Source: Takakia lepidozioides
Taxonomy: Eukaryota > Plantae > Bryophyta
NCBI GenBank assembly: GCA_030704615.1
Contig: CM060732.1
Coordinates: 2,108,001 to 2,172,000 of the forward strand
Length of the DNA: 64,000 nt
Direction: 5' to 3'
Part shown: one piece after another, positions 1 to 47,324 of the stretch
Layout of the letters: each line of letters begins with the position of its first letter
Numbering within the stretch: the stretch's first letter is position 1
The notes under the pieces: generated by a model
Databases searched by the model: none
The model's input: the letters and a program-made list of their open reading frames with translations, nothing else
What the model was told of the DNA's origin: nothing
Made by a program: the position numbers and the translations under genes

Positions 1-3000
1 ACGCTGGGTCTTCTTCTCTTTCTCCGGCCTGAGGAACATGTGGGTATCCCTAACAGTGGGATCGGAGCTCCATATCTATAGCCACTTCACCTTCTGTTCT
101 GAAGACACAACGGCGGTAGACAACTTGTGTAACTTCTCCTGGTGTGGCAGTCAGCTCTTTCTGGATGTGACTCTCAACCCCCTTTGCTGTCCTTCTCTCC
201 TCAGGGGTAGAGCTGTAGTATTCCAGTTTGCCACGCTCTCCTGCATCTGCAATGTCTTGCTGCAAGGGAATGCACGAGAGTTGCATCAATCCAAGGGCAA
301 CGGAAACAAACAGAAAAAAACATTTGGAAGCAGGAATATCAAAAGGCCAGATGATGGAAGATGTATCTCACCGCGTACATATACTCCATGACAGCCTCAC
401 GGGTCAACGAGTACCACGTTTCTGATGTCTTCGAGCTTTTCAACTTCTTGTACGTCTCTTCTGAAAGGATGGTCTTGAAGTTGGTTAAGGGCATCTGCCC
501 GATCCTTTGTATCATGTATAGTGTATGAACCAGACTCGTTTTGACATGCGATGTCTCCGTCCCTCTGCAGAATGATGTGTGAAAGTCAGAATGAAATTCA
601 AAAACCGTCAACAGAGGACTGGAACAAAAGAACCACAGAACCACAACTGGAACATGTAGAATGAGAAACCAACCTGTTCACATCATTCATTGCCGTAAGA
701 AGACCCATCATGTTCCCGTCACAATCTAACACCATCGGTCGAACAGAGTAATGCCACTCTTCCTCTTGTGAGTGCAGCCTCCCAATGACAGCCATCCATG
801 CAAGCAACAGGTGGTTGCCATCCCATACGTGAAACATCTTCCCTAAAAATGCCTGGGTCGAAGGTACCCTGGAGAGAAGAAGTTCGAAGGATTCGTTCAC
901 CTGTCTCCAAATGGGATCCCAGGAGTCCACGATTGACTCATCCACAAGGAGCTCATTGCCTCTGGAATCCCTAGTAGAAACGTAAAAGACTGCGGATCCA
1001 TCCAAATACCCATGAACAAACTCGGCCTCCAGCTTCACGATGTCCTTGATGAGGGGTGGACGAACGACGGGCATGGAAACCAACCTACACAGGGGAATCT
1101 TCAACCTCCCACCCGGGGCAAGTATACTTTGCACCACAACCTGAGAGTTTACCTTCTGACCCCCCAGCATCTCAGCGGCTTTGCTTTCATAGAACTCATC
1201 GTCCACATCAGCAATGATCTCCTTCCCCTGCCCCGAAGGGTTCTCATCCGCCACCCTTTGCATCTGCTCCTGCAAGGTTGTTCATTCAAATTGATATGAG
1301 AGATAGGCAAGAAATGATGGTGTTTTGAGCATGGCAGACAGGCCCTGTGTGGTCCAATCTCTCATCAGAAAACAAGCAGTGTGGGGGCCGAAAACAGTGT
1401 GCGTTGCCGCACACTGTTTCAGCTTCCAAATAGGGGTATTTTGAACATGACATTTGGCCCTATGTGGCACATTACCACATAAAAAAACAGGCAGAGAGGG
1501 GGCCAAGAAGCGGGCACAAACAGTGCGCGTTGCCACACACTGTTCGTGCTTCCAACTATGGGTGTATTGAGCATGCATACTGGCCCTGTTGGCCCAATTT
1601 TCACTTCAAAAAACAAGAAGAGAGGGGGCTCAAAATAGTATGCGTTGCCGCACACTGTTTGAGCTTCCAATAAAGGTTGGATTCAACCTGCCAGAGTGGC
1701 CCTAGGTGCGCGAATTTCACATCAAAAAACAAGCAAATAAGGGGCTCAAACAGTGTGCGTTGCCGCACACTGATTGAGCTTCCAATAAGGGGTGATTTGA
1801 ACATGGCATAGTGGCCCTAAGTGGCCAATTTTCAAATAAAAAAATAGGCAGTCAAGGGGGCACAAACAGTGTGCGTTGCCGCACACTGTTTGAGCTTCCA
1901 TTTCGGGGTGGATTCAACCTACCAGAGTGGCCCTAAGGGCCCAAATTTCACATGAAAAAACAAGCAGAGAGGGGGCTCAAAACAGTGTGCGTTGCCGCAC
2001 ACTGTTTGAGCTTCCAATAAGGGTTGGATTCAACCTACCAGAGTGGCCCTAGGTGAACGAATTTCACATCAGAAAACAAGCAAAAAAGGGGGCTCAAACA
2101 GTGTGCGTTGCCGCACACTGATTGAGCTTCCAATTCGGGGTGGATTCAACCTGCCAAAGGGCCCTATGTGGCCTATTTTCACATAAAAAAACAAGCACAA
2201 AAGGGGCACAAACAGTGTGCATTGACGCACACTGTTTGAGCTGCCAGCTAAGTGTGGATTGAACCTCACAGAGATGCTCTATATATGTGGCCGATTTTAC
2301 CATGAAACAAACAATGAGAAGGGGGGCTCAAACAGTGTGCGTTGACGCACACTATTTGAGCTTCGAAATAGGGGTGGATTGAACCAGACAGAGAGGCCCT
2401 GTGTGCACGATTTTCACACCAAAAAACTAGGAAAAAGGGGGGCTCAAACAGTGTGCAATGACGCACACTGTTTGAGCTGCCAAGTAAGTGTTGATTGAAC
2501 CTGACAGAGATGCCATATGTGGCCGGTTTTGACATGAAAAAAACAATGAGAAGGGGGGCTCAAACAGTGTGCGTTGCCGCACACTGTTTGAGCTTCCAAA
2601 TAGGTGTGGATTGAACGAGACAGAGAGGCCCTATGTGCACGATTTTCACACCAAAAAACTAGGAAAAAGGGGGGCTCAAACAGTGTACGTTGACGCACAC
2701 TGTTTGAATTGCCAGGTAAGTGTTGATTGAACCTGACAAAGATGCCCTATGTGGCCGATTTTGACATGAAAAAAACAATGAGAAGGGGGGCTCAAACAGT
2801 GTGCGTTGCCTCACACTGTTTGAGCTTCCAAATAGGTGTGGATTGAACGAGACAGAGAGGCCCTGTGTGCACGATTTTTACACCAAAAAACTAGGCAAAA
2901 GGGGCGCTCAAACAGTGTGCGTTGCCGCACACTGTTTGAGCTTCCAAAAAGTGGTGGATTGAACTAGACAGACAGGCCCGTTTGTGGCCGATTTTCGTAT

Positions 3001-3626
3001 CAAAAAACAAGCACAAAGTTGGGGCTCAAGCAGTGTGCGTTGCCGCACACTGCTTGAGCTTCTAAATACGGGTGGATTGAACTAGACAGAGATGCCGTAT
3101 GTAGGCAATTTTCATATCAAAAGACAAGCACAAATGGGGTCTCAAATTGTGTGCGTTGCCGCACACTGTTTGAGATTCCAGTCAGTGGTGGATTGAACGA
3201 GACAGATAGACCCAAATTGGTCGATTTTCAGATAAAAAATGAAGCACAAAGACTGGGTCTCAAACAGTGTGCGTTGCCGCACTCTGTTTGAGCTTCCAAA
3301 TAGGTGTGGACATCACTTGTACCTTTTTTTTTCCTGCTCTAGAAGACTCCCCAATCGTCGGAGACCCTTTGCGCTTCGGACTGCTCTCTACGCCTAGCAT
3401 GTTCTGGAGCATCTCCCCCATCCTCTTTTCCACTATCTGCTTCTTCGTGAGGCCAGAATCAATATCATCTTCGGCGTCCGACTCTCCCTCGGATGCAGTC
3501 TCTTCCTCACCTGTTCTCGGAAGTATGGCGGGCTGCTGTTCTTCTCCAGAATCCGGCTCTTCCATCGCCAAACTTTCCTCTTTGCCCTCTTATTCCTCCT
3601 TTTCCTCTTCGTCTACTCTTTCCATC
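1..3626 (-). pseudogene. 5' part of the ParB-like/methyltransferase accessory gene (copy A)
   Basis: Acidic exon (ORF 3260-3571) with donor AAG|GT at 3322 and acceptor TGCAG|GAG at 1270. ParB-like exon 598-1269 (MFHVWDGNHLLLAW). Later exons match 22854-23530, with a small deletion near 140. Confidence 0.7.
1385..3295. repeat. Tandem array of ~17 units of ~116-117 bp, each with the palindrome GCTCAAACAGTGTGCG-NNNN-CGCACACTGTTTGAGC
   Basis: Palindromes read at ~1391, 1521, 1633, 1751 ... 3261. Spacers are mutually homologous, with an alternating dimer pattern at ~2300-2900. Confidence 0.95.
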
Positions 3627-4133
3627 CTCATTCTATGTCTGGCTCTATTCCTGTTCCTAGTGTTTGTAAAGTATAACGACTTCCTTCTCTTCCTCCTCCG
3701 GTGGAAACAAGGGCTCCCCACGCTGCCTCTAGAGCTCTCCAGTTTGATGTTTGCAACAAGGGTTGCTTTGGCATGTATCCAAAATAAAAATTGGACATTG
3801 TTAACCGTATTTGCATGCGGGTGTCATCATTGTGTGCGAATGCAATTCATCCATTTCTGCGTCTTTGAATTATCCAAGAAAAAAAGTGGTGGCACTTCAA
3901 ATGCCGTTGCATGTACTTGTGATATATGTCAGATGTACTTCGCCGGCTGCCAATACATGGCAGCCTTCTTGCATTCTTTCAAATTCGGAATTGCCGTCAA
4001 AATCTATTGCTAGTTCAATTTCGAGCAGTACTTGCAGATTCGCAATAATTGTGATGATTCACATATGCATCCACGTATGTTGTGCTGCCTACCCTGCGGT
4101 TTGCATTTCGCCGTCACCGTCGCAATGGGGTCA

Positions 4134-4417
4134 CAGTGCTGTCTATTGGCTCAATTCTTCATGGCAAAGAATATCAGGTTATCGTGGGGAATTTCCCTAC
4201 GTGCACTTGTCCGGATTTTGTAACAATGCGTGAGGGCGCTCTCGGCATGAGAGGGAAGTGGGTCCCCTGCAAGCATCAATATTACATATACCTTGTAATT
4301 ATGTGCTGCGACGGTAAGAGAGACCAATTCATTCACCAAGCCACACTAGGCTACGGAGAAGTCATCACCCTTCTGCAGCGGGACACCTCACGTAGGGCTC
4401 CGCCAGATTCTCTTTGA
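4134..4417 (+). pseudogene. C-terminal SWIM zinc-finger remnant of the family-1 transposase
   Basis: CTCPDF...WVPCKH motif, nearly identical to rc 14581-14866 and rc 60809-61095. Confidence 0.85.
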
Positions 4418-4948
4418 ACACATACGAGCCATGCCCGCTTCCCATGCTGGTTTCGAGGTTATTGTGTGAAGACTTAGCATTTAGGACAAACGCATACATT
4501 TCGTTCACGGAACCACACATGCCATTCATTGTAAGCGTCTATCTGTGAATCGAAATGAAGTGTGTCAATCATTCTGAGCTCAAATCTGCCATATTTTCAT
4601 ATTCCTCTTTTCGTGCAGGCATTGCAGACATGGTGCATGGTGGCCCTCTTTGTTTTGTCCACGGTAATAGGCCATCTTCCTGCAATCCTCGCCTATAGGA
4701 CCTGCTTCTCCAGCAGATTTGTGCCGCTCACGCTTCCCTGAAGCGTGAGCTAAGCTCACGCTTTGCAGCTACAACGTGAGCTCAGCTCCCAGGCTCACAG
4801 GGCTGGGCTCACGCCGTAGCTACGCCGTGTAAAACTTAACGCAGGGGGAACACCCAGTAACCTAGAGACAAGAAAAAAAAGGTGGGGGGGGGTAAAAAAC
4901 TAAGGCAGTAGGCCAGATTGAGGCATCCAAAAAATACTTCCATGCCCT

Positions 4949-13499: not shown

Positions 13500-14189
13500 G
13501 TTTTTTAGCCACCTGATCCTGCACTCACCCATACACGGAGTAGGTGAGTCCCCTCCCACTTGAACCTGTAGGATCCAATCTTTCTCTTTAGCAGTCACAC
13601 TGGCTGCTGTCTCTCCGATACGAAGGTAGGCCAACACTGCTGCATCTTCATGCACATCCTTAGCATTACCAAGCTCATCACTGATCTCCAGATCGTCATG
13701 CACACCATCTACATGACCAATCCTATGGGATGGACCAGCTTGAGCTCCCATTGCTAGAATGTACAAAAAGGCAGATACATGTCATCCTTGCACCATCTCC
13801 TCATCCGTCTCACAATGCCACTGAGCTCCAGTATCATCATGCTCGCTCGTGCATGGATTACGACTCAACCCATCTGCATCTCGATTAACTATACATGCTC
13901 GATGCACCACCTGGAAGTCGTACACTTGAAGCATAAGTGCCCACCATCAACCACTTCAATGGTTGGTGATCCGTGACAATGGTGAAGAGATTGTCATAGA
14001 GGTAGCATCTGAAATGTGTCATTCAATTTATATGGTGACAATTCACCAAACATGAGTTTTCCCACCTTGTTTTGTTTTTTCTGTGGCTTTCTCTCTGTTT
14101 GCTTCTCTTGAGTGCTAACCACCTCTTAGTTTTCCAGGGCTGCCAGTTCACTTGCAAAGTGATCCCAAGGCTCTTCCTCCAGTGTATAC
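13500..14189 (-). mobile_element. Ty3/gypsy pol remnant (pre-integrase region); continuation of 26960-29100 across the MULE insertion
   Basis: DVHEDAAVLAYLRIGE...KEKDWIL / YKWEGTHLLRVW-like segment. Joined to the other side through the TSD TCCTCAAGG. Confidence 0.55.
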
Positions 14190-14580
14190 TCCTCAAGGCA
14201 GCGTAGCTACGGCGTGAGCCCAGCCCCATGAGCCTGGGAGCTGAGCTCACGCTTCAAGGAAGCGTGAGCGGCACAAATCTGTTGGAGAAGCAGGTCATAT
14301 AGGCGAGGATTGCAAGAAGAGGGCCTATTACCGTGGACAAAACAAAGGGGCCACCATGCACCATGTCTGCAATGCCTGCACAAAAAGAGGAATATGAAAA
14401 TATGGCAGAATTGAGCTCAGAATGATTTACACACTTCAATTCACAGATAGACGCTTACAATGAATGACATGTGCATTTGCCCTGGTTCCGTGAACGAAAT
14501 GTATGTGTTTGTCCTAAATGCAAAGTCTTCACACGGTAACCTTGAAACCAGCATGGGAAGCGGGCATGGCTCGTATGTGT

Positions 14581-17500
14581 TCAAAGAGAATTTGGCGGAG
14601 CCCTATGTGAGGTGTCCCGCTACAGAAGGGTGATGACTTCTCCATAGCCTAGTGTGGCTTGGTGAATGAATTGGTCTCTCTTACCGTCGCAACATATATT
14701 TACAAGGTATATGTAATATTGATGCTTGCAGGGGACCCACTTCCCTCTCATGCCGAGAGTGCCCTCACGCATCGTTACAAAATCCGGACAAGTGCAAGTA
14801 GGGAAATTCCCCACGGTAACCTGATATTCTTTGCCATGAAGAACTGAGCCAATAGACAGCACTGTGTAAATCCGTCCATACCCCGGGGCAGGGACTTCGG
14901 TGATACGAGCCTCCCGAGCCTACAAAATTCTAGCCGATTCCATCTTGCATTCGTGATCTGCACCCGAAGCGACACGGCGCACTGTTTTTTCATCTCTTTT
15001 TGTTGGGTGGGAGTCGGCACCGGATGGAGGCATTGCCGCAGCTTGTGGCACATCTGTGCCGACAGTGCACAAGGGCACCACTCGGGATCGTGCAAGACAA
15101 AACTCTCCCTCCTCCAGCATGCTATCTCGGTTGTTGACAGCGACGTCCCCAAGTTTCACAGGCCAATTGCGGGGGGAGGGGGTTTCATTATCACCGAAGG
15201 ACGAACTGTTCCCTTTGACGCATCGTGCCATATCGTCTTGGGCAGAACCAGAACTTGTGGTCCTTTGACTCCCCACTATGATAAGGTCGGAACAACCCTG
15301 TGAATGTTGGAGCTGGAGTCCCCCAGGAGCCTTTGCATATTTTTGATTTGCATTTCTTGAAAGAGGGGGTCCGAATTGCCATGCAAGCAACTCTAGATCC
15401 TGGTAGGGTGCGTTCTATATGCCACTCACTATCAATGCAATCAGATTCCTACACCATGGCCACCACCTCCTCCATGGGATTCCTGCTGCTGTGCTTGCAT
15501 GTTCTGCACCTGCTCCACAGGAGGAGGACCCACCTGGGAAGGGGCCGGCACACGACTTAGTCTGCCTGGAGACACCTTTGGCACAGAGAAATTGACCCTG
15601 TCTGGGCGATGGGAATCTCCATCTGAACCTGGAAGAGTGTTCAATTTCCTTTTGCATGATCCAAATCTTTCCTCGCCTTCCAAATGAGGGAGCCTGGATT
15701 GCAAAGGGGAGCCTTCAGTGCACCTGTTCAGAGCTCTGGCCATCTTGGATGGGTCTCCGGACCTACTCGCAGCCCTTAGCATCAACAAAGTCGTCACCGG
15801 GGCCCTTGCCTCCACCCCGTCCCATCAGAAAATTGCGGTACCTGGTTTGTTTGTGAGTGCCCGCACCATGTCATCAGCAGTGGCCATACAAGTCACGACC
15901 TGCTTTGGTAGATTGCTGCATCCAGGCGTTATGAACAGTCTCCGCCAAATTACAGGATGGCATGTCGGCCAAGTCCTCCAAGGACATGTCCTGCATGAGG
16001 CATTGCATGGAAATGTGAGGAAGGAAAGGAAATGGAAAAGGTTCTGCAAGCGACAATCCAAGAACCCCAAATGAAGAGGCACGATGCAAAATTTCTGATT
16101 TTGGGATTCAAGAGGCTTACCGTCGTCATGAAAGCTCCCCACTGTCTGTATCTGAAGTGCCAGAAAACCACCAGTCCTCCAACTCCTTCAGGTGGATACC
16201 AGTAGCAGCACCAGAGGAGAACCACCAAGCCCGGATTGCTTGGTAAGTGCTCTCAGCTTCTCCCATTGAGTTGGCATTTTTTTGTACTTGAGACATAGCC
16301 TTCTGTGCTCCAACTGAAGGTCAGGGTGAATGCACTGCTTTGTATGACATGCCAGAGATTGACTCCAATGGAAGAGGCATGTGCGCTCCCTATTTTCCAT
16401 TGGGACCTTAGGATCCCCCCGAACAAACACGCGCCGCACTGCATTGAAATTTGCCTGTGCACTATCAGCCATGAAGCCCCAAAATTTGTGTTCTGTATTC
16501 CATTGCGCTGCATGATGGCCAGGAGCGAATTCCACATGAGCATCTGGGATTCAGTGTCCTCCGACTGCATATCACAAATTGCTATTGAGAGCACACGCTG
16601 GTACGCTCATACACATGGCACGCCATGGTTGTCCAACCCTTCACCCGTTTGCAGTGATCAAACATCAACCAACATTTAGCCAAATCTCCTCCAGGTTGCA
16701 TTCGGCGGACAATGCTCACACACCACTGCCTTCGCCCACTGTGGACATCTTGAACAAATACACCTTGATGAGCCTGGCCAGGGAAGATACTGTTTTGAAT
16801 GAATTCATAGCGACTTCCTCCGTTTGAAGTCCATAATGTTGTCCATGAATCCAGCAGTGCCTGTGCCGACTCTGAGTGCATTCACCTGGTTTCGAATATT
16901 GGGAGAGCTCAACACGGAAAAATGGTCCATCACTGCATCAAGCGAATCTGCATCCAGCATTATTGTGTCGAATCCTCTTCACCCAATATGTGTTTTTTCC
17001 AGGAAAGCCTTGCTAGCTGCAAGCGCTATAGCAGAAGGTGTTGCACAAGGGGCATTGTGGACTCCTGCTTCACCAGATTTCTAGCGATGTCCACGCTATC
17101 CCTGCAACTTCCTTTGGACACAGGATGCTCGTGTGCACCCATATGAATGCAGGCACGAGTCATTGTCTTGCATCGGTGTGCCACTGGTACATACAAGCGT
17201 GGCACACAGAAACACAGGACGGGGAAAGTTTGCAGAACCTGCACACAAAAGTATTGGTCTTGGGAGGGGCAAGTCCTGGGGAAAGGATTCAAGGCACACC
17301 TTCTCCCACTCACTTTCGTTTGGTTGAGTGCTGTTTCTCAGGCGAGGGCAAATATATATTCGGGCACTTGCAATGCCCAACGCAAACCGACCTTCGAAAT
17401 TTCAATCCAATGTCGTTGTGGACGTTTGACGTTTTTGTCCTGCACCAAGGGTGTCCGTCATGTTTCTTGTCCATGCCCTGCAGAAGCCCAGCCAGTCCAT

Positions 17501-18140
17501 TGGAAGTCGTGGGAGGGTTGAGCTCAAACAAGATGTCCCCATCAAACTCTGCTGGCACGTATTGAACCCGCTGCACACGAAGGGACTCCCAATCAACAAA
17601 ACGCAGCTCGCTCTTGCACCCAGGCACCCCTGCGAGGGCTTTCAATTTTGGAATGACACTCGTATCTCTTGCAATTCGGATTCATCCAAGAATGTAGTCT
17701 GCATTGGCGGAGAAATCTCAGAAACATCCTCCGAGGACGAGTCTGAAAGAGTCACGAATGTAGTGGATGTGCTCACCTCTTGTTTCACATGAACTGTGCC
17801 CTTTTGCTGCACGACCGATGCTGCAGTTCCAGGGGTAATGACTGATCCTGCTGATTGTCTTCTCTCTTTTCCAAGGACACGGTATGTGCCTGGAAGGACT
17901 CTCCACTTCCTTCCACACTCGCCAACCAATGGTTTCTCCAAATGTCCAGAATCCAAATTCCCATCCTCGTCATACACCTCTTTTTGAACAAGCAGAGAAA
18001 CCCAATTCCAGTGGGAACACTGTAACCAGCTCATCCTCATGAACAACTGCAAACCCATCGTCGTCTGCAGTGGCAGTCAGTGGAAGACTACCTGCATTGG
18101 AATGAAATCAGGCTAGTCTATCTCTGTCCCTGGACATGTT
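14581..18140 (-). pseudogene. MULE transposase (GCM-like zinc domain, DDE core, SWIM), frameshifted
   Basis: HDGHPWCRT..CVGHCKC..C..C..GAHEHP; WLMFDH; FMADSAQ; CLFHW; NLAETVH; CTCPDF..CKH. Intron at ~16121-15992. The 5' start is approximate. Confidence 0.85.
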
Positions 18141-19105
18141 TTCCTACGCTGACCGAAACTTTCGATTCACAACGGAATCCCCGAATTGATAGCCCGCAAT
18201 TCTCGAAAGGGGATCCACCACAAAAAAATTGAGGTCAACAAGGGTAGCACTAACCCAAAGGCTGCGGGCGATGCATCAAAAGGATGCAGGAATGACATGC
18301 ACTGAACTTCGGAGATAACCACGCTGAGACACCAACTAGAAAAACTGTTTTCAAATACAGGAAGCCACAAGAAGCCGTGCTGTTTTTGGATGAAAAACAA
18401 ACCCTGAACATGACATGAAACCATCCTTTATGGAAAGACGGCAACAACCCTGGAGAGCAGTAAACAGGAAGACCCCGAATGTAATGAGCCGTGCCAGAAG
18501 AGCACAGCACAAACACTGACACTCCAAGAGTCACCTCGCACGGATGTGTGCAACACAAGATCATTTCCGACACAACCCTTTATACCGAATGACCCCATGG
18601 CGACGATGACGGCAAAATGCAAAGCACAGGGCAGGCAGTACGAAACACGTGGATGCATATGTGAAGCACAACATTTATGGCGAATCTGCAAGAACTGCTC
18701 CAAATTGAACTAGCATTAGATTTCTACGGCACTTCCGAATTTGAAACCATGCAAGAAGGCCGCCATATATTGGCAGGCGGCGAAGTACGATCTGACATAT
18801 ATCTGACAGTACATGCAAAGTACATGTATGTACATGTACATATTTTCTAGCACTTTATTTCTTGAATAATACAAAGACGCCGAAATGGATGAATTCCGTT
18901 CGCACACAATAACAACACCCGCATCCAAATATGGTTGACAATGTCCAATTTTGATTTTGTTACATGCAATAGCAACCCTTGTTGCAAACGTCAAACTGGA
19001 GAGCTCTAGAGGCATCGTGGGGAGCCCTGTTTCCAGAGGAGGAGGAAGAGAAGGAAGTCATTATACTTCACGAGCTCTAGAAATAGGAATAGAGCCAGAT
19101 ATAGA

Positions 19106-22100
19106 ATGAGGATGGAAAGAGTGGCCGAAGAGGAAAAGGCGGAAGAAGAGGGCAAAGAGCAAAGTTCGGCGATGGAAGAGCAGGAATCCGGGGAAGAACA
19201 GCAACCTGCCATAGTTCCAAGAACAGATGAGGAGGACACTGCATCCGAGGGAAAGGCAGACGCCGAAGATGATGTTGACGCTGGCCTCACGAAGAACCTA
19301 ATAGTGGAAGAGAGGATGGGGGAGATGCTCCAGAACATGAGAGGCGTGCAGAGCAGTCCGAAGCGCAAAGGGTCCCCGGCGAATGGGGAGTCTTCTGGAG
19401 CAGCCAAAAAAAAGGTACAATCTTTGAAACCCACCTTTGTGCTTCATTGCTGATGTGAACCCAAGTTGAGAATCTATTTCGATATGAACATAGTCTACAC
19501 ACCGCATCTCTGCCAGGTTGCATCAACGGCAAACAAGAAGCTCAAAAAGTGTGCGTTGACGCACACTGTTGGAGCCTTCCATTTTGCTGGCTTGTTGATG
19601 TTTGAAACGGCCAAATTGGGGAACTATGGCAGGTTAAATCCACCATGAATTAAATGCTGAAACAGTGTGCGTTGACACACACTGTTTGAGCCCCGCATTT
19701 TACTTGATTGATGGTGTGAAAAATGGCCAGATAGGGCCACTATGCCCGGCTCAATTCTCCACTATTTGGCAGCTCAAACAGTGTGCGTTGGCGCACACTG
19801 TTTGAGCCCACCTTGTCATTGTTTTTTCATCTGAAAAACGGCCACAAACGGCATGTATTTGAGGATCAATCGTCACTTACATGGCAGCTCAAACAGTGTG
19901 CGTCAACGCACACTCTTTGAGCTCACATTGTCATTGCCTTTGTCATCTGAAAATCGGCCACATAGGGTATGAATTTGAGGATCAATCATCACTTACCTGG
20001 CAGCTCAAACAGTGTGCGTTGGCGCACACTGTTTGAGCTACCCTTATCATTGCCTTTTTCATTTCAAAATCGGCCACATAGGGCATGTCTCTGAGGACCG
20101 ATGAACACTTATCTGGCGCTCAAACAGTGTGCGTTGCCGCACACTGTTTGAGCACACCTTGTCTCTGTTTTTCCCCTGTGAAATTCGGCAATACATGGCA
20201 TGTCTCGGAGGTTCAATCATCACTTATCTGGCAGCTCAAACAGTGTGCGTCAACGCACACTGTTTGAGCTCACCATGTCATTGCATTTGTCATCTGAAAA
20301 TCGGCCACATAGGGTTTGTATTTGAGGTTCAATCATCTTTTACCAGGCAGCTCAAACAGTGTGCAATGCCGCACACTGTTTGAGCACACCTTGTCACTGT
20401 TTTTCCCCTGTGAAATTCGGCAATACAAGGCATGTGTCTGCGGTTCAATGAACACTTATCTGGCAGCTCAAACAGTGTGCGTCAACGCACACTGTTTGAG
20501 CTCACCATGTCATTGCATTTGTCATCTGAAAATCGGCCACATAGGGTTTATATTTGAGGTTCAATCATCACTTATCTGGCAGCTCAAACAGTGTGCGTCA
20601 ACGCACACTGTTTGAGCTCACCATATCATTGCATTTGTCATCTAAAAATCGGCCACATAGGGTTTGTATTTGAGGTTCAATCATCACTTACCTGGCAGCT
20701 CAAACAGTGTGCGTCAACGCACACTGTTTGAGCTCACCATATCATTGCATTTGTCATCTGAAAATCGGCCACATAGGGTTTGTATTTGAGGTTCAATCAT
20801 CACTTACCTGGCAGCTCAAACAGTGTGCGTCAACGCACACTCTTTGAGCTCACCATATCATTGCATTTGTCATCTGAAAATCGGCCACATAAGGTTTGTA
20901 TGTGAGGTTCAATCATCACTTACCTGGCAGCTCAACAGTGTGCGTCAATGCACACTGTTTGAGCTCACCATATCATTGCATTTGTCATCTGAAAATCGGC
21001 CACATAGGGTTTGTCTCGGAGGTTCAATGAACAGTTACCTGGGAGCTCAAACAGTGTGCGTCAATGCACACTGTTTGAGCTCACCATGTCATTGCATTTG
21101 TCATCTGAAAATCGGCCACATAGGGTTTGTCTCGGAGGTTCAATGAACAGTTACCTGGGAGCTCAAACAGTGTGCGTCAATGCACACTGTTTGAGCTCAC
21201 CATGTCATTGCATTTGTCATCTGAAAATCGGCCACATAGGGTTTGTATTTGAGGTTCAATCATCACTTACCTGGCAGCTCAAACAGTGTGCGTCAACGCA
21301 CACTGTTTGAGCTCACCATATCATTGCATTTGTCATCTGAAAATCGGCCACATAGGGTTTGTATTTGAGGTTCAATCATCACTTACCTGGCAGCTCAGAC
21401 AGTGTGCGTCAACGCACACTGTTTGAGCTCACCATATCATTTCATTTGTCATCTGAAAATCGGCCACATAGGGTTTGTCTCGGAGGTTCAATGAACAGTT
21501 ACCTGGCAGCTCAAACAGTGTGCGTCAACGCACACTGTTTGAGCTCACCATGTCATTGCATTTGTCATCTGAAAATCGGCCACATAGGGTTTGTATTTGA
21601 GGATCAATCATCACTTACCTGGCAGCTGAAACAGTGTGCGTTGCCGCACACTGTTTGAGCACACCTTGTCACTGTTTTTCCCCTGTGAAATTCGGCAATA
21701 CAAGGCATGTGTCTGCGGTTCAATGAACACTTATCTGGCAGCTCAAACAGTGTGCGTCAACGCACACTCTTTGAGCTCGCCTTGTCATTGCCTTTGTCAT
21801 TTGAAAATTGGCCACTAAGGGCTTCTCTTTGAGGTTCAATGAACACTTACCTGGTATGTCTCTAAGGTTCAATGAACACTTATGTGGCATGTCTCTGAGG
21901 TTCACTGAACACTTACCTTGCAGCCCAAACAGTGTGCGTCAACTCACACTGTTTGAGCTCACCTTTTCTTTTTTTCTATCTGAAAATCGGCCACTAAGGG
22001 CTTCTCATTGAGGTTCAATGAACACTTACCTTGCAGCTCAAACAGTGTGCGTCAACGCACACTGTTTGAGCTCACCTTTTCTTCCACACATGGCCTGTTT

Positions 22101-25100
22101 GCCATGCTCAAACACCATCGTCTCATGCCTCACTCTTATATCAATTTGAATGGACAACCCTGCAGGAGAAGATGCAAAGTGTGGCGGAGGAGATCCCTTC
22201 GGGGCTGGGGAAGGATATCATTTTTGATATTGACGATGAGTTCTATGAAAGCAAAGCCGTTGAGATGCTGGGGGGTCAGAAGGTAAACTGTCAGCTTGTG
22301 GTGCAAAGTATGCTTGCCCCGGGTGGGAGGTTGAAGATTCCCCTGTGTAGGATGGTTTCCATGCCCGTCGTTCGACCACCCCTCATCAAGGACATTCTCA
22401 AGCTAGAGGCCGAGTTTGTTCATGGGTATTTGGATGGATCCGCAGTGTTTTACGTTTGTACAAAGGATTCCACAGGCAATGAGCTCCTTGTGGATGAGTC
22501 AATCGTGGACTCCTGGGATCCTATTTGGAGACAGGTGAACGAATCCTTCGAACTTCTTCTCTCCAGGAAACCTTCCACCCAGGCATTCTCGGGGAGATGT
22601 TCACGTTTGGGATGGGAACCACCGATTGCTTGCATGGATGGCTGTTATTGGGAGGCTGCACTCACAGGAGGAAGAGTGGCATTACTCTGTTCGATCGATG
22701 GTGTTGGATTGTGAGGGGAACATGATGGGTCTTCTGATGGCAATGAATGATGTGAACATGTTGGTTTCTCATTCTACATGTTCCACTTGTAGTTCCGTGG
22801 TTCTTTGATTAAAGTCCTTGAATTTCATTCTGACTTTCAGATATCATTCTGCAGAGGAACGGAGACATCGCATGTCAAAACGAGTCTGGTTCACACACTG
22901 TATAGGATACAAAGGATCGGGCAGATGCCCTTGACCAACTTCAAGACCATCCTTTCAGCAGAGACGTACAAGAAGTGCGAAAGCTCCAAGACATCAGAAA
23001 CGTGGTACCCGTTGACACGTGAGGCTTTCATGGAGTACATGTACACGGTGAGATACATCTTCCTTCATCTGCTCTTTCCATATTCCTGCTTCCACATGTT
23101 TGTTTCTGTTTGTTTCCCTTGCCCTTGGGTTGATGCAACTCTCGTGCATTCCCTTGCAGATGCAGGGGAGCGTGGCAAACTGGAATACTACAGGTCAACC
23201 CCTGAGGAGAGAAGGACAGCAAAGGGGGTTGAGACTCACATCCAAAAAGAGATGACCGCTACATGAAGGACTATAATGAGTGCTTTTGTGAAGCAGTTGA
23301 GAATTGCCGACCCATCATTCGGATCGCAGTTTCTCTTGGAGATAAAAAACCATTATAACAAGCCAGGCAAGCCAAAGATGGCCCAGGAGAAGTTACACAG
23401 GTTGTCTACCGCCGTTGTGTCTTCAGAACAGAAGGTGAAGTGGCTACAGATATGGAACTCCGATCCCACAGTTAGGGATACCCACATGTTCCCCAGGCCG
23501 GAGAAAGAGAAGAAGACCCAGCGTGTCATTCCAGTCAGTGACAATGTGCTGGACACATGGCTTCACAAGGCCACTTACTGGAGCCAGGTGTGATGTCCTT
23601 TCCTGTGTCACTTTCTTTTCTCTTTTCCTGTCCTTCTCTTTCCATTGCCTCTCACATTCGATGTGATTTTTTTTGGGTTCATTCTTGCATTTGAATTGTT
23701 TTGCAGTTGGAAGAAAGGGCACGGTGGGTTCTGCATACTCAGCTGGCTGACTATGACATCACTATGACAGCACCAAAGGTCTCCTTCGAAGCATACATGA
23801 GGAAATGGAGAGCCACAGTGTGGCACTCTTGTTTCTTTAGAGAGTTCAGCAAGGAGGGTGGCATCAGTCGAACACATGACCTTGACCAGCAAGAAAAAGG
23901 AGAGGAAGCCTGGAAACGATGCCTTTACAGGTGCACACCCTGGGCCGTTCAGGCTACTTAGTGTGCTGTGGTTGCAATGTATTGTGACGCATACAGTTTA
24001 AGGGGTCTTCCTGCTGTGATGGAAAAGCTGAGAGACAATAATTGCATTGCATAATGAGGTTGTCTTTGTTCCTGCAGGTACATAAAGTTGTTCTCATGGA
24101 AGAGAATTGCTTGGACAAACATCCAGATTTCGTGGACCTCTGGCTTGTCCCTACTGGCAATCAGACCATGTTCACTACTGGGATCTTGCATGACTGGGGC
24201 CCAGATCATCTTTCTTCTTGTGGTTGGTATTTGGATTGCCCTCATTCTGAGACCCCAGCTCTGGAGGTGTCTTTGAGGAGAGAGAATGAGCGAATTGCAG
24301 CCACTGCCGCAGCAGCCGACCTCGACATTCATGAACGAAATTTGAGGACTCTTGCAGAGAAGGAGCCTCCCGCTCAGGATACCCCGGGTAGAGGTAGAAA
24401 GGCAAAGGGGAAAGATGTTGCTGGTGTTGTGGGGAAAGGAAGGGGTAGAGGGAAGGTGGCACAAGGGCAGGGAAGTGTTGCAGATATTGGCCCAGTGGTG
24501 CATGTCCAGCAGACTCCACCGCATGGTAGGGGATCCGTGAGAAAGAACAAGGGGGTGGTTGATCCCAAGGACCCGTACCATGCAGTGGAACATCCGACGA
24601 GGGTCATTCGCCCTACCAGGTTGGAGATGGCCAACGTCGGATTCCTTGCCATGATGGAGTCCAAGAAATCTGATTACAAGGGCGAGCCATCACCAGTGTG
24701 GGAGGGGATTGTGGAGTTCCTCGGCATGGTGCGTGTTCTCTTTTGCTTCTTCTCTGCAGTGGGCATGGATCGTTTCAATCCTCTTGAGTATTCCATTGTA
24801 ATTTGTTTGCAGGCTAAAATGACCAAATCCTGGGTGAACGGGAAGGAGAAGCAATATGCAGCCGAACTCATAATCTTGGACATCCCTGATGGGTTGGCAG
24901 TCCCGGATGTCCCTCCATCGGGTGCTTGTCCAGGTTGGAATGCTTTTGATGAGCGCTACTGGCGGTGGGTTTTCTCCTTTGCAATTTTTTCCTGTCCGAT
25001 GCAGGTGTTTTGGTGCTCATACAGTCCGCCGACGTTCACTGTCGCCGTGCACTTGCCAGCTATATGAAAGCCTCGGGCATGAGAGTCCTGAAGACATGGA

Positions 25101-26243
25101 ATTGTGTGAACAGCGAAGGGGGATCGTCCGGGAGAGATGGTAAATTTGCCTTCTTCTTCCTCTTCTTGGTGGTTCTCGGATGGAGTTGTGTAGGTCGCTC
25201 GAACTCATATGTAGGGGCCTGATTTTTTAAGCTTCTTAGTTCCTTCTGGATGTGTTGTTCGCAGACTCGTTTGTTTGAAGCTGTTTGTCTCGTCCGAGTG
25301 CATCCACCAACGACTCCGGCCGGCATTTCGGAGTTCGCCATCACTCATGGGGGCAAGTTCATAGACGACAGGACAGATCCTCCAACGGATGACATGCACC
25401 ACAACTACGTCGACAACAACGTCTGCTTGCGAAGGGGGAATGGGGTTCCTTGGAGAGGGGCGAGGGAGAGGAGCCCGGCTTTCATTCAAACGATTGTGGA
25501 GTGCTGCACCTACACAGACGCCAGAGTTCTGGATTTGTCAATGGGCACAGGTTCGTCTCTTCAACATTCGGATTTCATGAGGTTTGATTCAGCTTGCACT
25601 TTCAGTACTTCCCACCGTTCCATATGTGTCTTCAATGTCTGCTTCCTTCATTCTATTCCACTGCAGGTGCTTCGTACCACGCTTGCAAGGCCAGTGCCCG
25701 ACATCTCTTTGGGATTGAAGGGGATGCTGAGATTTACAAGAACCTCCTGATGGGTTTGGGTGGACACACTTCTCAAGTCCTTCCGAAGCCCCGTCCCGTT
25801 GATATTGATACAGAAGAGACTTCCGACAAGGAGCTGGACTCCGACTTTGCCTGTGAGTAAGTTCAACCTGTGGATGCTTGCATTGTTGTTTCAATATCGA
25901 GAATCACTCTTCTTGAGGCAAAGTTCACATGGCAGACATCCTCTTCGTTGGACTTGTGTATTGCATATTGTGTTCTGAATGGGTTTTTGTCGACATGTGC
26001 AGGAGTCCGCGTGCTTCCACTTGCCCTCCAGGGCTATCACACCTATTTGGACTTCTTTCCAGTCCTCCTCGGTCTTGCGTGCTACCTGTCTATGCGGAGG
26101 CACTCGCAACAAGCATGACCGTTCATGGCACTCGGAGTCCACCCATCGACGGCCGTGGTAGAAGACGTGGTGCTGGGGCCAGAATCTTTGTGGATGACAT
26201 AGCACAGGAGGTCAAGACTGATTCTGATGACTGTGACACTTGA
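19106..26243 (+). pseudogene. Multi-exon accessory gene: acidic N-terminus, ParB/Srx-like domain and beta-class N6/N4 DNA methyltransferase-like domain
   Basis: Predicted exons: ~19106-19414, 22166-22760, 22854-23047, 23160-23587, 23707-23951, 24078-24729, 24813-25139, 25265-25549, 25667-~25853, ~26003-26243. WDGNHRLLAW at ~22610; ELIILDIPDG at ~24865-24895; RERSPAFIQTIVECCT..RVLDLSMGT|GASYHACKASARHLFGIEGD. A few frameshifts and stops. Confidence 0.75.
19535..22075. repeat. Intronic tandem array of ~22 units of ~116 bp, each with a 36-38-bp palindrome AGCTCAAACAGTGTGCG-NNNN-CGCACACTGTTTGAGCT
   Basis: Counted from the sequence; for example 20241 to 20473 equals two periods of 116 bp. Confidence 0.95.
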
Positions 26244-26959
26244 TATGAAGTTTGCTTTTGGTTTTATTCGGGGCCAAATTTGAAATGGGATGGTTGTGTG
26301 TCCTTGTTGTCCTGTTTGCAATGTGTGCGTGGAATGCACATTAATGGGAACAAACTATTGTTGGAGATGGGGGTTGCATGGACTGCCCGGATTGTTCCTT
26401 CAATCTATTTAGTGTTCTCTGGACCTCACAGACTTGAGTGCATTGCAAAAACAAACAAACGACTTTGGTTCGTGTACAGCATTCCCGCATCATTTGGTCG
26501 TTGGTCTCCAAACCATTCCTGCTAGAAGAATGGTTGGTGAATCCATCACGGTGAAGTCCACCTCATCGAAGAGCTGTGAGGCATTCTCAAATCTAATGAG
26601 CATCCATGATGCTCCCGCACATACCTGGCATGTTCGCAAGGGTGGTGAGTAAGAAAAGATTTCGCAGGGTTCCGCTTTAGATCATGTCAGTGTGCACCTC
26701 CTCACGACGTACCCACATAAACTTGTGAGGGCTTGGTATGTTGATAACGTCTGCATGGATGCAATGGATATAATGGATGTAACATATCCACTCTGCATTC
26801 CCGGGAAATGGCTGATCAACCCGCGAAAATAGGTGACACCCGCGGAAATAGGCCCTGTATGTATGCTGACGTGGCGTGAGCCTGTGCTGGGCTCACGGTT
26901 TCTTGGGCTCACAGGCTCACGCCTCCAGGCTCATAGAATAGCACCCCCCCTCCTCAAGG

Positions 26960-29100: not shown

Positions 29101-31333
29101 AGTGCTCAGAGTATGAAAACATGTCCAGGAGGGAGACAGACTCGCTAGATTTCATTCCAATGTAGGTAGTCTTCCACTGACTGCCACTGCAGATGACGAT
29201 GGGTTTGCAGTTGTTCATGAAGATGAGCTGGTTACAGTGTTCCCTCTGGAGATGGGTTCTCTGCTTGTTCAAAAAGAAGTGTATGACGAGGATGGGAATT
29301 TGGATTCTGGGCACTTGCAGAAACCATTGCATGGCGAGTGTGGGAGGAAGTGAAGAGTCCTTCCAGGCACTGAGCGAGGCCTGGGTGCAAGAGCGAGCTC
29401 CGGTTTGTTGACTAGGAGTCCCTTCAGGTGCAGCGAGTTCAATATGTGCCAGCAGAGTTTGACGGGGACATTTTGTTTGAGCTCAACCCTCCCACGTCTT
29501 CAAGTGGATTTGCTGGGCTTCTGCAGGGCGTTGACAAGAAACATGACGGACATCCTTGGTGCAGGACAAAAACATCGAACATCCACAACGACATTGGGTT
29601 GAAATTTCGAAGGTCGGTTTGCGTTGGACATTGCAAGTGTCTGAATTCTTCTTGCCCTCGCCTGAGGAACAGCTCTAAACCAAACGAGAGTGAGTGGGAA
29701 GGGGTGCCCCTGAATCCTTTCACACCAGGGCTTGCCCCTCCCAAGAGCAATACTTTTGTGTGCAGGTTCTGCAAACTTGCCCTATCATGTGTTTTTGTGT
29801 GTCACACTCGAATGTACCAGGTGGCACACCGATGCAACACAATGACTCGTGCTTGCATCCGTATGGGCACACACGAGCATCCTGTGTCGAAGGGAAGTTG
29901 CAGGGATAACGTTGACATCGGTAGAAATCTTTTTAAGCAGGAATTCCATAATACCCCTTGTGCAACGCCTTCTGCTATAGCGCTTGCAGCTAGCAAGGCA
30001 TTCCTGGAAAAACACATACTGGGTGAAGGGGATGCGTCACAACCAATGCTGGATGCAGATTCGCTTGATGCAGTGATGGACCATTTCTCCATATTGAGCT
30101 CTCCCAATATTCGGAACCAAGTGAATGCACTTATAATGGGCACTGGCAGTGCTGGATTCATGGACAACATCATGGACCTAAAACGGAGGAGTCGGTATGA
30201 ATTCATTCAAAACAGTATCTTCCCTAGCCAGGGCTCGTCCAAGGTGTATTTGTTTAAGATGTCCACAGTGGGCGAAGACAGTGGTGTGAGCATCGTCCGC
30301 CGAATGCAACCTGGAGGAGATTTGGTAAAATGTTGGTTGATGTTTGATCACTGCAAACGGGTGAAAGGTTGGACAACCATGGCGTGCCATGTGTACGATC
30401 CAGTGTACCAACTTGTGCTTTCCATAGCAATTTGTGATATGCAGTCAGAGGACACTGAATCCCAAATGCTCATGTGGAATTCTCTCCTGGCCATCATGCA
30501 ACGCAATGGAATGCAAAACACCAATTTTGCGGGGTTCATGGCTGAAAGTGCACAGGCAAATTTCAATGCAGTGCGGCGTGTCTTTGGTTCGGGGGATCCT
30601 AAGGTCCCAATGGAAAATAGGGAGCGCACATGCCTCTTCCATTGGAGTCAATCTCTAGCACGTCATACAAAGCGTTGCATTCGACCTGACCTTCAGCTGG
30701 AGCATAGAAGGCTCTGCCTCAAGTGAAAAAATCCAACCTCAATGGAAGAAGCTGAGAACAGTTACCAAGCAATCCGGGCTTGGTGGTTCTCCTCTGGTAC
30801 TGCTACAGGGATCCAGCTGAAGGAGTTGGAGGACTGGTTGGTTTTCTGGCACTTCAGGTACAGACAGTGGGGAGCTTTCATGATGACGGTAAGCCTCTTC
30901 AATCCCAGAATTACAAATTTCACTTTGCGTCTTGCCTGTTCCTTTGGGGTTGTTGGATATGCACTTGCAATTCCTCTTCCATTTCCGTTCGTTCCTCACC
31001 TTTGCATGCATTGCCTCCTGCAGGACAAGTCCTTGGAGGACTTGGCCGACATGCCTTCGTGTAATTTGGCGGAGACAGTTCACAACGCCTGGATGCAGTA
31101 GTCTACCAAAGCAGGACGTGACTTATATGTTGCCACTGCAGATGACATGGTGCGGGCACTTACCCAACAAACCAGATACCGCAATTTTCTGATGGGACGG
31201 GACGGAGGCAAGGGCCCTGATACGACTTTGTTGATGCTAAGGGCTGCGAGCAGGTCCGGAGACCCATCCAAGATGGGGAGAGCTCTGAACAGGTGCACTG
31301 AAGGGTCCCCTTTGCAATCCAGGGTCCCCCAAT
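29101..31333 (+). pseudogene. Isolated family-1 MULE transposase core fragment
   Basis: The 432-aa ORF 29428-30726 has GCM-like and DDE motifs (second D reads E). Intron at ~30889-31023, then NLAETVH. No element ends are attached. Confidence 0.85.
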
Positions 31334-32160
31334 TAACCCACCAGCCAAGAATACACAGAACAGGTACATAATTACAGCCACTGATTATACTACAAAGTGG
31401 GTGGAAGCTAAAGCTTTGAGGGACAACACAACCAAGTCCACAGCAAGGTTCCTGTATGAGAACATACTTACACGATTTGGCTGTCCCATGGAATTTATCA
31501 GTGATCAGGGAAGTCACTTCATTAATGAGACCATTGAACTATTGACTAAAGAGTTCATGATTGTGCATAGGAAGAGTACAACATATTACCCACAGGGTAA
31601 TGGGCAGGCAGAGGCTACCAACAAAATACTATGTACTATCTTGGCTAAGATAGTCAATGCAAACAGAACGGATTGGGATACAAAGCTGCTGACAGCTTTG
31701 TGGTCATACAGAACTTCATATAAAGTCACCACTAAGTATACACCATTCCAATTAGTTTATGGTATGGAAGCTTTACTTCCAGTGGAATTCCTGTTACCTA
31801 CCATGAGAACGGAATGAGGAAAGATAATGGAATTGCAAGATTCAATTAAGGTCAGGAAACATGAATTATACCATGTGGAAGAAGTACGTGCTGATGCAGC
31901 TGATAACATGACCAGAATTCAGATGAAGAGAAAGGAACAGTTTGATGAAGGCAAGTTAAAGACTTTTAAGACGGGAGATTTGGTTCTCTGGTTGCAAAAG
32001 AAGGGAAAGATTAAAGCTTCTAAGCTTAAATCACCATGGAAAGGACCTTATGTCATACAGAAGATGTATGATAACAACACCGCCATGTTACAAACCATTA
32101 ACAAAGAGATGCTGGGAAGAGTCAATGCCAATAAGTTGAAGGGGTACAGTGGTATCCATG
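31334..32160 (+). pseudogene. Ty3/gypsy integrase (rve core plus GPY/F)
   Basis: ATDYTTKWVEAKAL..ISDQGSHF..YYPQGNGQAEATNK..WKGPY. Confidence 0.92.
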
Positions 32161-35500: not shown

Positions 35501-36696
35501 AGTCTTCTTCGCAGGGGTTGCAGGAGATGCCAGTGGTACAAGAGCCAGTGCTACCAAGACCACAACAAGTGACTGTGCCAGTAGCTGACCCAATTGTTAC
35601 TACAGCCACAGCACAGCCGCCACAACCTGAGGTATGGGGGGATGCTGCTTTCAACCCACCTAAAACTCCTGCTGCACGGGAGTACAGTCGGGCTATGATA
35701 ATGCCCTTCAACCAAATTCCAATTGTGTTGGATTTGGCTTGGAAGGAATTTAGTCCTCCGCAGTCGTTGGCACATTACTACCAAATCATGCGCATTTGGC
35801 TGCCAGTGGCAACTAGGACTAAGGTTCTTCCGAACAATCGACCCATTGAGGATCATCACTTTGCAAGGTACTGGCATGAGGCAAGTACCATGTTGAAGGA
35901 ATTAATTGCCTTCCAAATTGTACATGGATTCATTTATACCAAGACCAAGGAGGTAGCAAGTATTGTCATGGGCTGCGGGTTATACTATGCTGCTTGTTTT
36001 CTGGCACGTTATCACATTGAGCAGCAGAAAATGCAATCGCGATTTCTGAGTTATTCCAGTGGGGATCATTGGGTCTTACCTTCAGTGCCACCTCATATGT
36101 ACCTCTATGATGCAAAGGTGATGATGCAAAAGGATTCCCAACTTCGTTCATGGTTTCATGCGGCCTGGAACAATTTGTCAACACAGAAATTTGGACCTGA
36201 CGATATTTTCTTTAAATGACATGAGGCATGGAAATACTTGCACAATTCACAAGTCATTGGCACACCACTCACCTTTACAGACAAGGAGTTCAGGGTCTTC
36301 ACCAATTTTGCCATTCAACGCTTACAACAAGTTTTGCAGTTTAAACTTCCAGACATGGTGGGACAACATTGTATGCCCCAGAGAATTCCAGTTAGAGTTC
36401 GACTGTTAAAACACCTCAGGGGGGACGAGGATTCTGATACTACTGTTTCTTCAGCGGACTCTTTTGACATGGCAGAGGACTATGCAATTCAGATGGCAGA
36501 GAAGAAGCGACGGGGGTCTCCTATGCCTGAGCGATTACCTCGATATCAGCCAAAGGAGGGACTGACATTTCCAGGTAGTGTTCAATCATCTCCGTCAACC
36601 AGTGAAATGACTCGAGCTTGCACAAGGAGTCCTTCAAGAGACTCTAACCGTCAGAAGGGTGCTTGCTCACAAAGGTTTCCAAATCCTAAACAGTAA
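32577..36696 (+). pseudogene. Large extra ORF 3' of pol (Athila env-like/Transposase_32-like N-terminus plus coiled coil)
   Basis: MLQFLQNFEPRTGATTVKGVELEVTPLYLQQLFELP motif, a long heptad-rich stretch and several stops. It ends just before the PPT. Confidence 0.6.
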
Positions 36697-36735
36697 ACCG
36701 TGAGGACACGGCTTTTTGAGAGGGGAAGGGGTAAA

Positions 36736-47228: not shown

Positions 47229-47324
47229 AGGCGGGTCCGGTTCCGGTCCGGTTCCACATAACCGGAACCGGAACCGGCGGATACCCGGGGCCCAGGCGGG
47301 TAACCGCCCAACACTGGTATGAAG

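What the first reader, a model, noticed from the sequence alone, without database searches (positions are those of the whole stretch)
24813..25760. Bacterial-type amino-methyltransferase domain with spliceosomal introns and an altered catalytic motif (DIPD)
The motif order is beta class: IV (ELIILDIPDG, where DPPY is expected) precedes X/I (RERSPAFI..RVLDLSMGTG ASYHAC..RHLFGIE). Motif I is split by a GT-AG intron (25550-25666), so it is hidden in the ORF track. DIPD may be a mutation in this copy (TAT>GAT), or a family-wide change giving an inactive SAM-binding/DNA-reading domain or a new specificity. Eukaryotic 4mC enzymes of this fold are known from bdelloid rotifers and Marchantia; any relationship is untested.
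Basis: partly seen in the sequence, partly recalled or inferred. Interest (0 to 1): 0.8.

Follow-up and report, generated by a model that had tools for sequence, protein, structure and literature searches.

The report
Plant transposon's ParB–pseudo-methylase cargo gene
This is the tail of a second gene carried by a broken, repeated 12.8-kb Mutator-like transposon of what is likely a seed-free land plant: it joins a predicted bacterial ParB-type domain to a DNA-methylase-type domain whose catalytic motif is eroded across the family, and the protein likely binds palindromes in its own first intron to protect the transposon, like cargo genes already proposed in algae.

Summary
It is the C-terminus of a 10-exon ParB/Srx-fold plus methyltransferase gene. 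The gene lies head-to-head with a Mutator-like transposase in a 12,751-bp element with a 10-bp target-site duplication. A 116-bp palindrome array fills the gene's first intron. DIPD is not a mutation of this copy: no variant of 2% or more at those codons in four runs. Of 22 Riccia and Adiantum relatives, none has DPPY and 21 lack the aromatic residue. DIP/DLP is an ordinary phage motif start; the real change is loss of the base-stacking tyrosine. This copy is a pseudogene. The best reading is a likely non-catalytic, self-binding transposon helper analogous to VANC; an active methylase of altered chemistry is the main rival. ParB-methylase transposon cargo is already described in brown and red algae. 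The land-plant Mutator version with an eroded motif IV was not found in my six literature searches. New variant of a known kind.

The parts
14199..26949 (.). Mutator-like DNA transposon (element B), 12,751 bp, no terminal inverted repeats, inserted in an LTR retroelement
   Evidence: 10-bp duplication at both ends, found only twice in the window; flanks read through as one frame; left end shared by three copies
14189..14198 (+). Left target-site duplication (10 bp)
26950..26959 (+). Right target-site duplication (10 bp)
14199..14290 (.). Left terminal region with clustered GCTCA(C/T)G repeats
26870..26949 (.). Right terminal region with clustered GCTCA(C/T)G repeats
14623..18400 (-). Broken transposase gene (5' end approximate): Cys/His-rich N-part, D (16671), D (16472), CxxH (16379), E (15951), SWIM finger (14796-14730)
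   Evidence: translation and motif positions; SWIM Pfam E=0.02, no MULE Pfam hit; dN/dS 0.18 against the copy at 29416-30723
19106..19414 (+). Inferred first exon (acidic/basic low-complexity N-terminus) of the ParB-methylase gene
   Evidence: open frame, phase-0 donor and acceptor conserved in both window copies; no RNA test
19476..22081 (.). 116-bp tandem array, each unit with a ~28-bp palindrome (arms around a TGCG-N4-CGCA core), inside intron 19415-22165
   Evidence: 20 core hits against shuffle mean 0.18, max 2; none elsewhere in the element
22166..22759 (+). ParB/Srx-fold exon with WDGNHR motif; frameshifted in this copy at 22594-22599
   Evidence: model of copy A, pLDDT 89; ParB/Noc/KorB/Srx top hits; lesions
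22854..24728 (+). Middle exons (22854-23047, 23160-23587, 23707-23930, 24078-24728), no named domain
   Evidence: conserved in order in metagenome loci
24813..25139 (+). Methylase exon with motif IV (DIPDG, 24879-24893); frameshift at 24977 and probably near 25113 in this copy
25265..25550 (+). Methylase exon with motif X and first half of motif I
25551..25666 (+). GT-AG intron splitting motif I (116 nt)
   Evidence: same position in relatives
25667..25856 (+). Exon with end of motif I, motif II (FGIE) and acidic tail
26003..26240 (+). Inferred last exon
   Evidence: GT-AG sites only; weakest part of the model
1..4828 (-). Second copy (A): left end, SWIM remnant, internal deletion of most of the transposase, array (1385-3310), intact ParB exon (1263-676); runs off the window

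Best explanation
The stretch is the methylase-type C-terminal domain of a ParB-fold fusion gene that a Mutator-like transposon carries head-to-head with its transposase, and the protein is likely a non-catalytic helper that would bind the palindrome array in its own first intron to keep the element from being silenced. Shown: the element, its target-site duplication, the exon order, the array position, the family-wide loss of the motif-IV aromatic, and that this copy is broken. Predicted: ParB/Srx nucleotide-binding fold (confident model) and beta-class methylase fold (poor model, supported by profiles). Inferred: without the aromatic that stacks on the flipped base, methyl transfer to DNA would be lost or very weak while SAM/SAH or DNA contact is kept; the protein would load at the palindromes, perhaps spread as ParB clamps do, and exclude or undo host 5mC, as VANC does for VANDAL.
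For: Element and 10-bp duplication. The same transposase lies upstream on the opposite strand in 3 of 10 distinct metagenome places with at least 5.5 kb upstream, and never downstream among 80 loci. 537 relatives of the ParB exon at 50% clustering; the ten long ones are Riccia and Adiantum proteins. Motif IV: no variant of 2% or more in 4 runs; 21 of 22 named proteins lack an aromatic at position 4; loci add DIPE, DYPE, NVPG, DVPS, EVPS, YVPS. Motif I has also lost its first Gly in L016 and L019. The domain is still kept: 36-38% identity to L016/L019 against 41-42% for the ParB exon. ParB exons show dN/dS 0.12-0.58 between the two window copies. Array is intronic, as VANC target repeats are (PMC5735166 section 9). 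The role of the aromatic is from PMC4738411 Box 1.
Against: No binding, activity or methylome data. The exact palindrome core is not shared with distant relatives (0 hits in 28 of 30 loci, 1 in 2); only 4 of 10 loci had their own repeated palindrome above a weak shuffle control (3-4 against 2, 8 shuffles). 7 of 10 long places show no transposase within the flank held. Asp and Pro3 of motif IV and, in Riccia, a DFxGGWG motif I are conserved, and a bacterial/eukaryotic clade with SLPD exists, so activity is not excluded. One Adiantum protein keeps an aromatic (DVPF). dN/dS was not measured for the methylase exons.
Confidence: 0.45

Rival explanations
1. The domain is an active DNA amino-methyltransferase with an unusual motif IV. 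It would write 6mA or 4mC on the element's own palindromes or nearby cytosines and so block host 5mC or recruit readers.
For: D and P3 of motif IV, the downstream W[ND], and a G-x-G motif I are kept in the window, Riccia and Adiantum. PF01555 matches in Riccia members (E 9e-6; 28 of 30 Atlas hits). SLPD motif in Iyer's clade 2 (activity there is only predicted). Algal cargo genes are proposed to act so.
Against: Position 4 takes S, T, D, E, G, I, F, which looks like no constraint on a catalytic residue; motif I is degenerate in L016 and L019.
Confidence: 0.22
2. The array is bound by the transposase's own N-terminal zinc domain, and the ParB-methylase protein helps transposition (end pairing, target or timing) rather than anti-silencing.
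For: A sister element in the window has an array with the same TGCG-N4-CGCA core just upstream of a related transposase. MULE transposases have WRKY-GCM1 DNA-binding domains (PMC1702500, listing only); the GCM site ATGCGGG is recalled, not from a call. AtMu1 transposase activates its own copies (listing).
Against: The array lies inside the ParB gene's intron, not at the ends; the ends carry a different repeat. The sister element's far side is cut by a retroelement, so it may have had its own cargo gene. Red algal arrays sit next to the ParB gene across transposon types.
Confidence: 0.2
3. The methylase domain is a decaying passenger with no present role; only the ParB half, or nothing, is selected.
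For: This copy and most loci are broken; motifs I and IV both vary.
Against: The domain and its intron position persist across liverwort, fern and metagenome loci with identity near that of the ParB exon; a spliced contig of a short paralog joins ParB and motif X-I exons in two runs.
Confidence: 0.08

Closest known systems
Ectocarpus Sola1-1_Ec32 accessory gene (PMC12477816; passages and supplement term search seen)
   Same: ParB-like plus N4C/N6A methyltransferase domain, about 1,100 aa, on the strand opposite to the transposase of a giant DNA transposon; proposed to bind and modify its own element.
   Different: Brown alga and Sola-1 transposase against a land plant and a Mutator-like transposase. 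The passages give no motif IV state; homology to this family could not be tested (sequence not obtained).
Bostrychia Plavaka accessory genes PAG2 and PAG3 (bioRxiv 10.1101/2025.02.11.637652; passages)
   Same: ParB-like protein next to tandem arrays of inverted repeats, proposed self-binding; a PF01555 methylase on the same elements; homologs on Chondrus Mutator elements.
   Different: There ParB is fused to a 2OG oxygenase and the methylase to a SET domain, on two genes; here ParB and methylase are one gene and motif IV is eroded.
VANDAL/VANC of Arabidopsis (PMC5735166; abstract and section 9)
   Same: Transposon with an extra gene and fast-evolving tandem repeats in its introns; shown anti-silencing.
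   Different: VANC has DUF1985/DUF287; no such Pfam hit here. Anti-silencing is untested here.
Phage beta-class N6/N4 methylases with DIPY/DLPY (PF01555, phrog_3008)
   Same: Motif order IV then X-I, D-[IL]-P start, downstream W[DN]; best tblastn hits of a Riccia member; phrog_3008 in 18 of 23 members.
   Different: Tyr lost; introns; fused to ParB through ~600 aa of unnamed sequence. Donor clade unresolved: profile scores did not separate DIPY from DPPY groups.
Marchantia DN4MT1 and bdelloid N4CMT (passages; listing)
   Same: Beta-class bacterial-type methylase fold in a eukaryote.
   Different: DN4MT1 has TSPPY and shown 4mC activity; SPPY and chromodomain of N4CMT are recalled. This family has Asp first, no aromatic, and a ParB fusion on a transposon. 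No tree was built.

Membership tests
Beta-class N6/N4 DNA methyltransferase (PF01555) | Permuted order, motif IV before X-I-II | tested here: met
Beta-class N6/N4 DNA methyltransferase (PF01555) | Profile or fold match | tested here: met
   Spliced window 21.2 bits against shuffles 2.8; Riccia members E 9e-6, just under the curated cut-off; Atlas 28 of 30; Foldseek top CcrM, M1.HpyAVI, E 6e-7, on a pLDDT 43 model; VIA Z 7.0 over 156-167 residues to MboIIA/BceJIV, tied with unrelated small folds
Beta-class N6/N4 DNA methyltransferase (PF01555) | Catalytic [DNSH]-P/I/L-P-[YFW] motif | tested here: not met
   DIPD fixed in the family; 21 of 22 named relatives lack the aromatic
Beta-class N6/N4 DNA methyltransferase (PF01555) | SAM-binding motif I (FxGxG) | tested here: inconclusive
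   DLSMGTG here, DFAGGWG in Riccia, first Gly lost in L016 and L019
Beta-class N6/N4 DNA methyltransferase (PF01555) | Methyl transfer to adenine N6 or cytosine N4 | not testable with these tools
   needs an assay
ParB/Sulfiredoxin superfamily | Fold | tested here: met
   pLDDT 89; Foldseek prob 0.98 but E 0.07 to ParB 6sdk; VIA Z 7.1, rmsd 2.7-3.0, 89-95 aligned to PadC/KorB; all 8 hits at Z>=5 are ParB/Srx-type; no Pfam hit
ParB/Sulfiredoxin superfamily | GxxR nucleotide-binding motif (consensus recalled) | tested here: met
   G149, N150, H151, A155 invariant and R152 nearly so in 12 sequences
ParB CTPase clamps | parS-binding HTH and CTP-dependent sliding | not tested
   middle exons were not folded; CTP use needs an assay
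Mutator-like elements (MULE) | 9-11 bp target-site duplication (range recalled) | tested here: met
   10 bp
Mutator-like elements (MULE) | DDE core with CxxH after the second Asp, C-terminal SWIM (signature recalled) | tested here: inconclusive
   motifs present by inspection; SWIM E 0.02; no MULE Pfam or PDB hit
Mutator-like elements (MULE) | Long terminal inverted repeats (absent in non-TIR MULEs) | tested here: not met
   ends do not match as inverted repeats; only short shared repeats
VANC anti-silencing proteins | DUF1985/DUF287 domains | tested here: not met
   no such Pfam hit
VANC anti-silencing proteins | Tandem target repeats in the element's introns | tested here: met
   array in first intron; target status unproven
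Algal ParB-methylase transposon accessory proteins | ParB plus methylase fusion, opposite strand to transposase | tested here: met
Algal ParB-methylase transposon accessory proteins | Sequence homology to the Ectocarpus protein | not testable with these tools
   sequence not found in the supplement term search
Eukaryotic 4mC enzymes DN4MT1/N4CMT | SPPY motif IV | tested here: not met

The most novel reading that the evidence does not exclude
Seed-free plant transposons run a eukaryotic ParB-parS-like system: the protein loads at the intronic palindromes, slides as a nucleotide-gated clamp along its own element, and its rewired methylase domain either flips and shields cytosines or writes an amino-methyl mark without the canonical aromatic, giving sequence-specific immunity from host 5mC silencing.
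Probability: 0.2. Interest if true: 0.85.

Novelty: new variant of a known kind. Interest (0 to 1): 0.52.

Why it matters
VANC is described as the only transposon protein shown to bind and modify its own element (passage). ParB-methylase cargo has been proposed as a second such class from algal sequences alone. This family extends it to liverworts, ferns and metagenome loci, gives a clean candidate binding site (a near-perfect 28-bp palindrome, about 20 copies, in the gene's own intron) and intact-looking proteins in Riccia, and predicts that the methylase half works without catalysis. That makes the self-binding idea directly testable and could yield a new sequence-specific epigenome tool.

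Tried and rejected
Single window exons gave no methylase hit in Pfam, the protein collection, phage tblastn or PDB sequences. Profile searches of PDB with the family alignments were blank. 'DIPD is a TAT>GAT change in this copy' was rejected. 'Donor is the phage DIPY clade' was tried and is unresolved: scores of the plant profiles on 31 clusters did not separate DIPY (best 27.9) from DPPY (26.3), though the motif-IV profile leaned to DLPY (median 5.4 against 1.3). No tree was built, so kinship to DN4MT1/N4CMT is judged from motif and architecture only. 'One palindrome core is shared across species' was rejected. No RNA holder of this element was listed; this says nothing on expression. The Atlas likeness of the ParB exon to fungal DUF3723 (score 0.95, recognition below the usual level) was not followed up; no paper held both DUF3723 and ParB. 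The methylase model is low confidence. No whole genome is held, so copy number and other insertion sites were not counted. Supplements of the two bioRxiv papers could not be seen and may bear on homology to PAG2/PAG3. Iyer 2011 (reference 50 of PMC12477816) was not read.
Full report
Observation. DIPDG is encoded at 24879-24893, motif X and the first half of motif I in exon 25265-25550, and the rest of motif I and motif II from 25667. The intron is 25551-25666, 116 nt, GT-AG, phase 1. Removing it raises the score on an HMM of 5 phage beta-class methylases from 2.6 to 21.2 bits; none of 500 shuffles came near (221 reported, best 2.8). The same intron position appears in distant relatives. Single exons alone hit nothing relevant.

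The gene. The domain ends a gene of ten predicted exons on the + strand, 19106 to about 26240. The exon at 22166-22759 has an intact twin in a second copy at 1263-676. Its model is confident (pLDDT 89) and matches only ParB, Noc, KorB, PadC, sulfiredoxin, SerK and SbnI at the top, although E-values and Z-scores are moderate (E 0.07, Z 7.1). The GNHR motif is invariant or nearly so. The window copy is dead: compared with other copies it has indels at 22594-22599, 24087 and 24977, a stop at 23264 and probably a deletion near 25113. ParB exons show dN/dS of 0.58, 0.12 and 0.24 between the two window copies.

The element. Upstream on the opposite strand lies a broken transposase with D, D, CxxH, E and a SWIM finger (SWIM E 0.02 and no MULE Pfam hit; the signature is recalled). 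The unit 14199-26949 is bounded by a 10-bp duplication that occurs only twice in the window, and the joined flanks read as one retroelement frame across the site. The ends are not inverted repeats but both carry GCTCA(C/T)G clusters. The left end recurs at 4825 and 60460. Copy A has lost most of the transposase and kept the array and ParB gene. In one DNA run 7,844 contig pieces lie on the 4.2-kb gene: a high-copy family, not counted. A 116-bp array with a ~28-bp palindrome fills the first intron (20 core hits against a shuffle mean of 0.18).

Relatives. The ParB exon finds 537 cluster representatives. The ten long ones looked up are from Riccia sorocarpa (5) and Adiantum (5); 26 more methylase-domain proteins are all Riccia. 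The host is therefore likely a seed-free land plant. Of 80 metagenome loci, ten distinct places hold at least 5.5 kb upstream; three (L025, L049, L062) have the same transposase 4-9 kb upstream on the opposite strand, seven show none within the flank held, and none has it downstream. L049 has its own 136-bp array. The window's exact core is not shared, and evidence for family-specific palindromes elsewhere is weak (4 of 10 above 8 shuffles).

Is DIPD special? It is not a lesion of this copy: over 447, 113, 14 and 6 contig pieces in four runs (at most three samples), no difference of 2% or more was listed at its codons, while neighbouring positions did vary. Among 22 named proteins with the motif, the counts are DLPS 9, DLPT 3, DMPT 3, DMPS 2, DLSS 2, DMSS 1, DFPI 1, DVPF 1. 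Loci add DIPE, DYPE, NVPG, DVPS, EVPS and YVPS, several from broken copies. Ile or Leu at position 2 is ordinary: 105 of 127 phage methylases scored (11 of 31 clusters) have DIPY or DLPY, as do HindIII-like enzymes (PMC12294265, one passage). The real change is loss of the aromatic that holds the flipped base (PMC4738411 Box 1). Motif I keeps G-x-G here and in Riccia but not in L016 or L019. The Riccia domain matches PF01555 just under the cut-off, phage methylase families, 28 of 30 Atlas hits, and beta-class structures on a poor model. A clade with SLPD is in the supplement of PMC4738411, so a non-aromatic motif does not prove inactivity.

RNA. No RNA run holds this element (uninformative). 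Two runs guessed to be RNA each have a 2.0-2.3 kb contig of a diverged, shorter paralog that skips intron 22759-22853 exactly, joins ParB exons to the motif X-I exon with 196 letters between, and has a length deficit of 117 across the 116-nt intron. This supports joining of ParB and methylase exons for a paralog only; whether it holds motif IV is unknown.

Mechanism. Shown: cargo gene, array position, family-wide erosion. Inferred: a non-catalytic helper that binds the intronic palindromes and counters silencing, as VANC does (PMC5735166, abstract and section 9); 0.45. Rivals: active methylase of altered chemistry 0.22; array bound by the transposase with the fusion aiding transposition 0.20; decaying passenger 0.08.

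Prior art. Earlier notes of this scan report the same architecture in other genomes and pointed to two papers, which I read in passages. Ectocarpus Sola1-1_Ec32 carries a 1,104-aa ParB plus N4C/N6A methylase gene opposite its transposase, proposed to modify its own element (PMC12477816). Bostrychia Plavaka elements carry a ParB-oxygenase gene beside inverted-repeat arrays and a methylase-SET gene. So the kind is known, as a hypothesis. I found no paper on a land-plant Mutator version or on the eroded motif in searches; subscription journals are mostly not covered. Marchantia DN4MT1 has TSPPY and is not shown to be related beyond the fold.

Verdict. Real feature; new variant of a known kind; interest 0.52.

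Noticed in passing
window 39557-47316: hAT-type element with short terminal inverted repeats and an 8-bp duplication; carries transposase frames (41012-42331, minus) and two TauD dioxygenase frames (44708-45217, 46699-47319; Pfam E 5e-25 and 1e-29). It splits one palindrome array in two.
   Followed up: partly
window 38936-39556, 47317-48316 and 48440-53260: Sister Mutator-like element with a 53/106-bp array sharing the TGCG-N4-CGCA core, upstream of a related transposase; its far side is cut by a retroelement near 37770, no ParB hit in the window.
   Followed up: partly
window 4922-6079: Broken frame with a weak QRICH1 hit (E 0.002); may be a Crypton/DUF3504-type recombinase remnant (link recalled).
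   Followed up: no
window 29106-31334 and 60460-61665: Further fragments of the element B family: transposase core on the + strand (436-aa open frame) and a left end with SWIM.
   Followed up: partly
runs X8, X9 and X1; loci L068-L072, L075; protein P0075: A short form in which the ParB exons lie close to the motif X-I exon, at single-contig depth in X1 and spliced in X8/X9; possible separate subfamily or domesticated copy.
   Followed up: partly
window 676-1263 (P0001): Atlas features resemble fungal DUF3723 clusters and a cnidarian cluster (0.94-0.95); DUF3723 may be a ParB/Srx-fold family on other eukaryotic mobile elements.
   Followed up: partly
window 9279-9845: Frame with a three-helix HTH_74 hit (E 1e-10), probably a host gene exon.
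   Followed up: no
window 32594-37770 and 53853-60039: Two copies, in opposite orientation, of a retroelement-like region with long unnamed coiled-coil frames and 10-bp tandem repeats.
   Followed up: no
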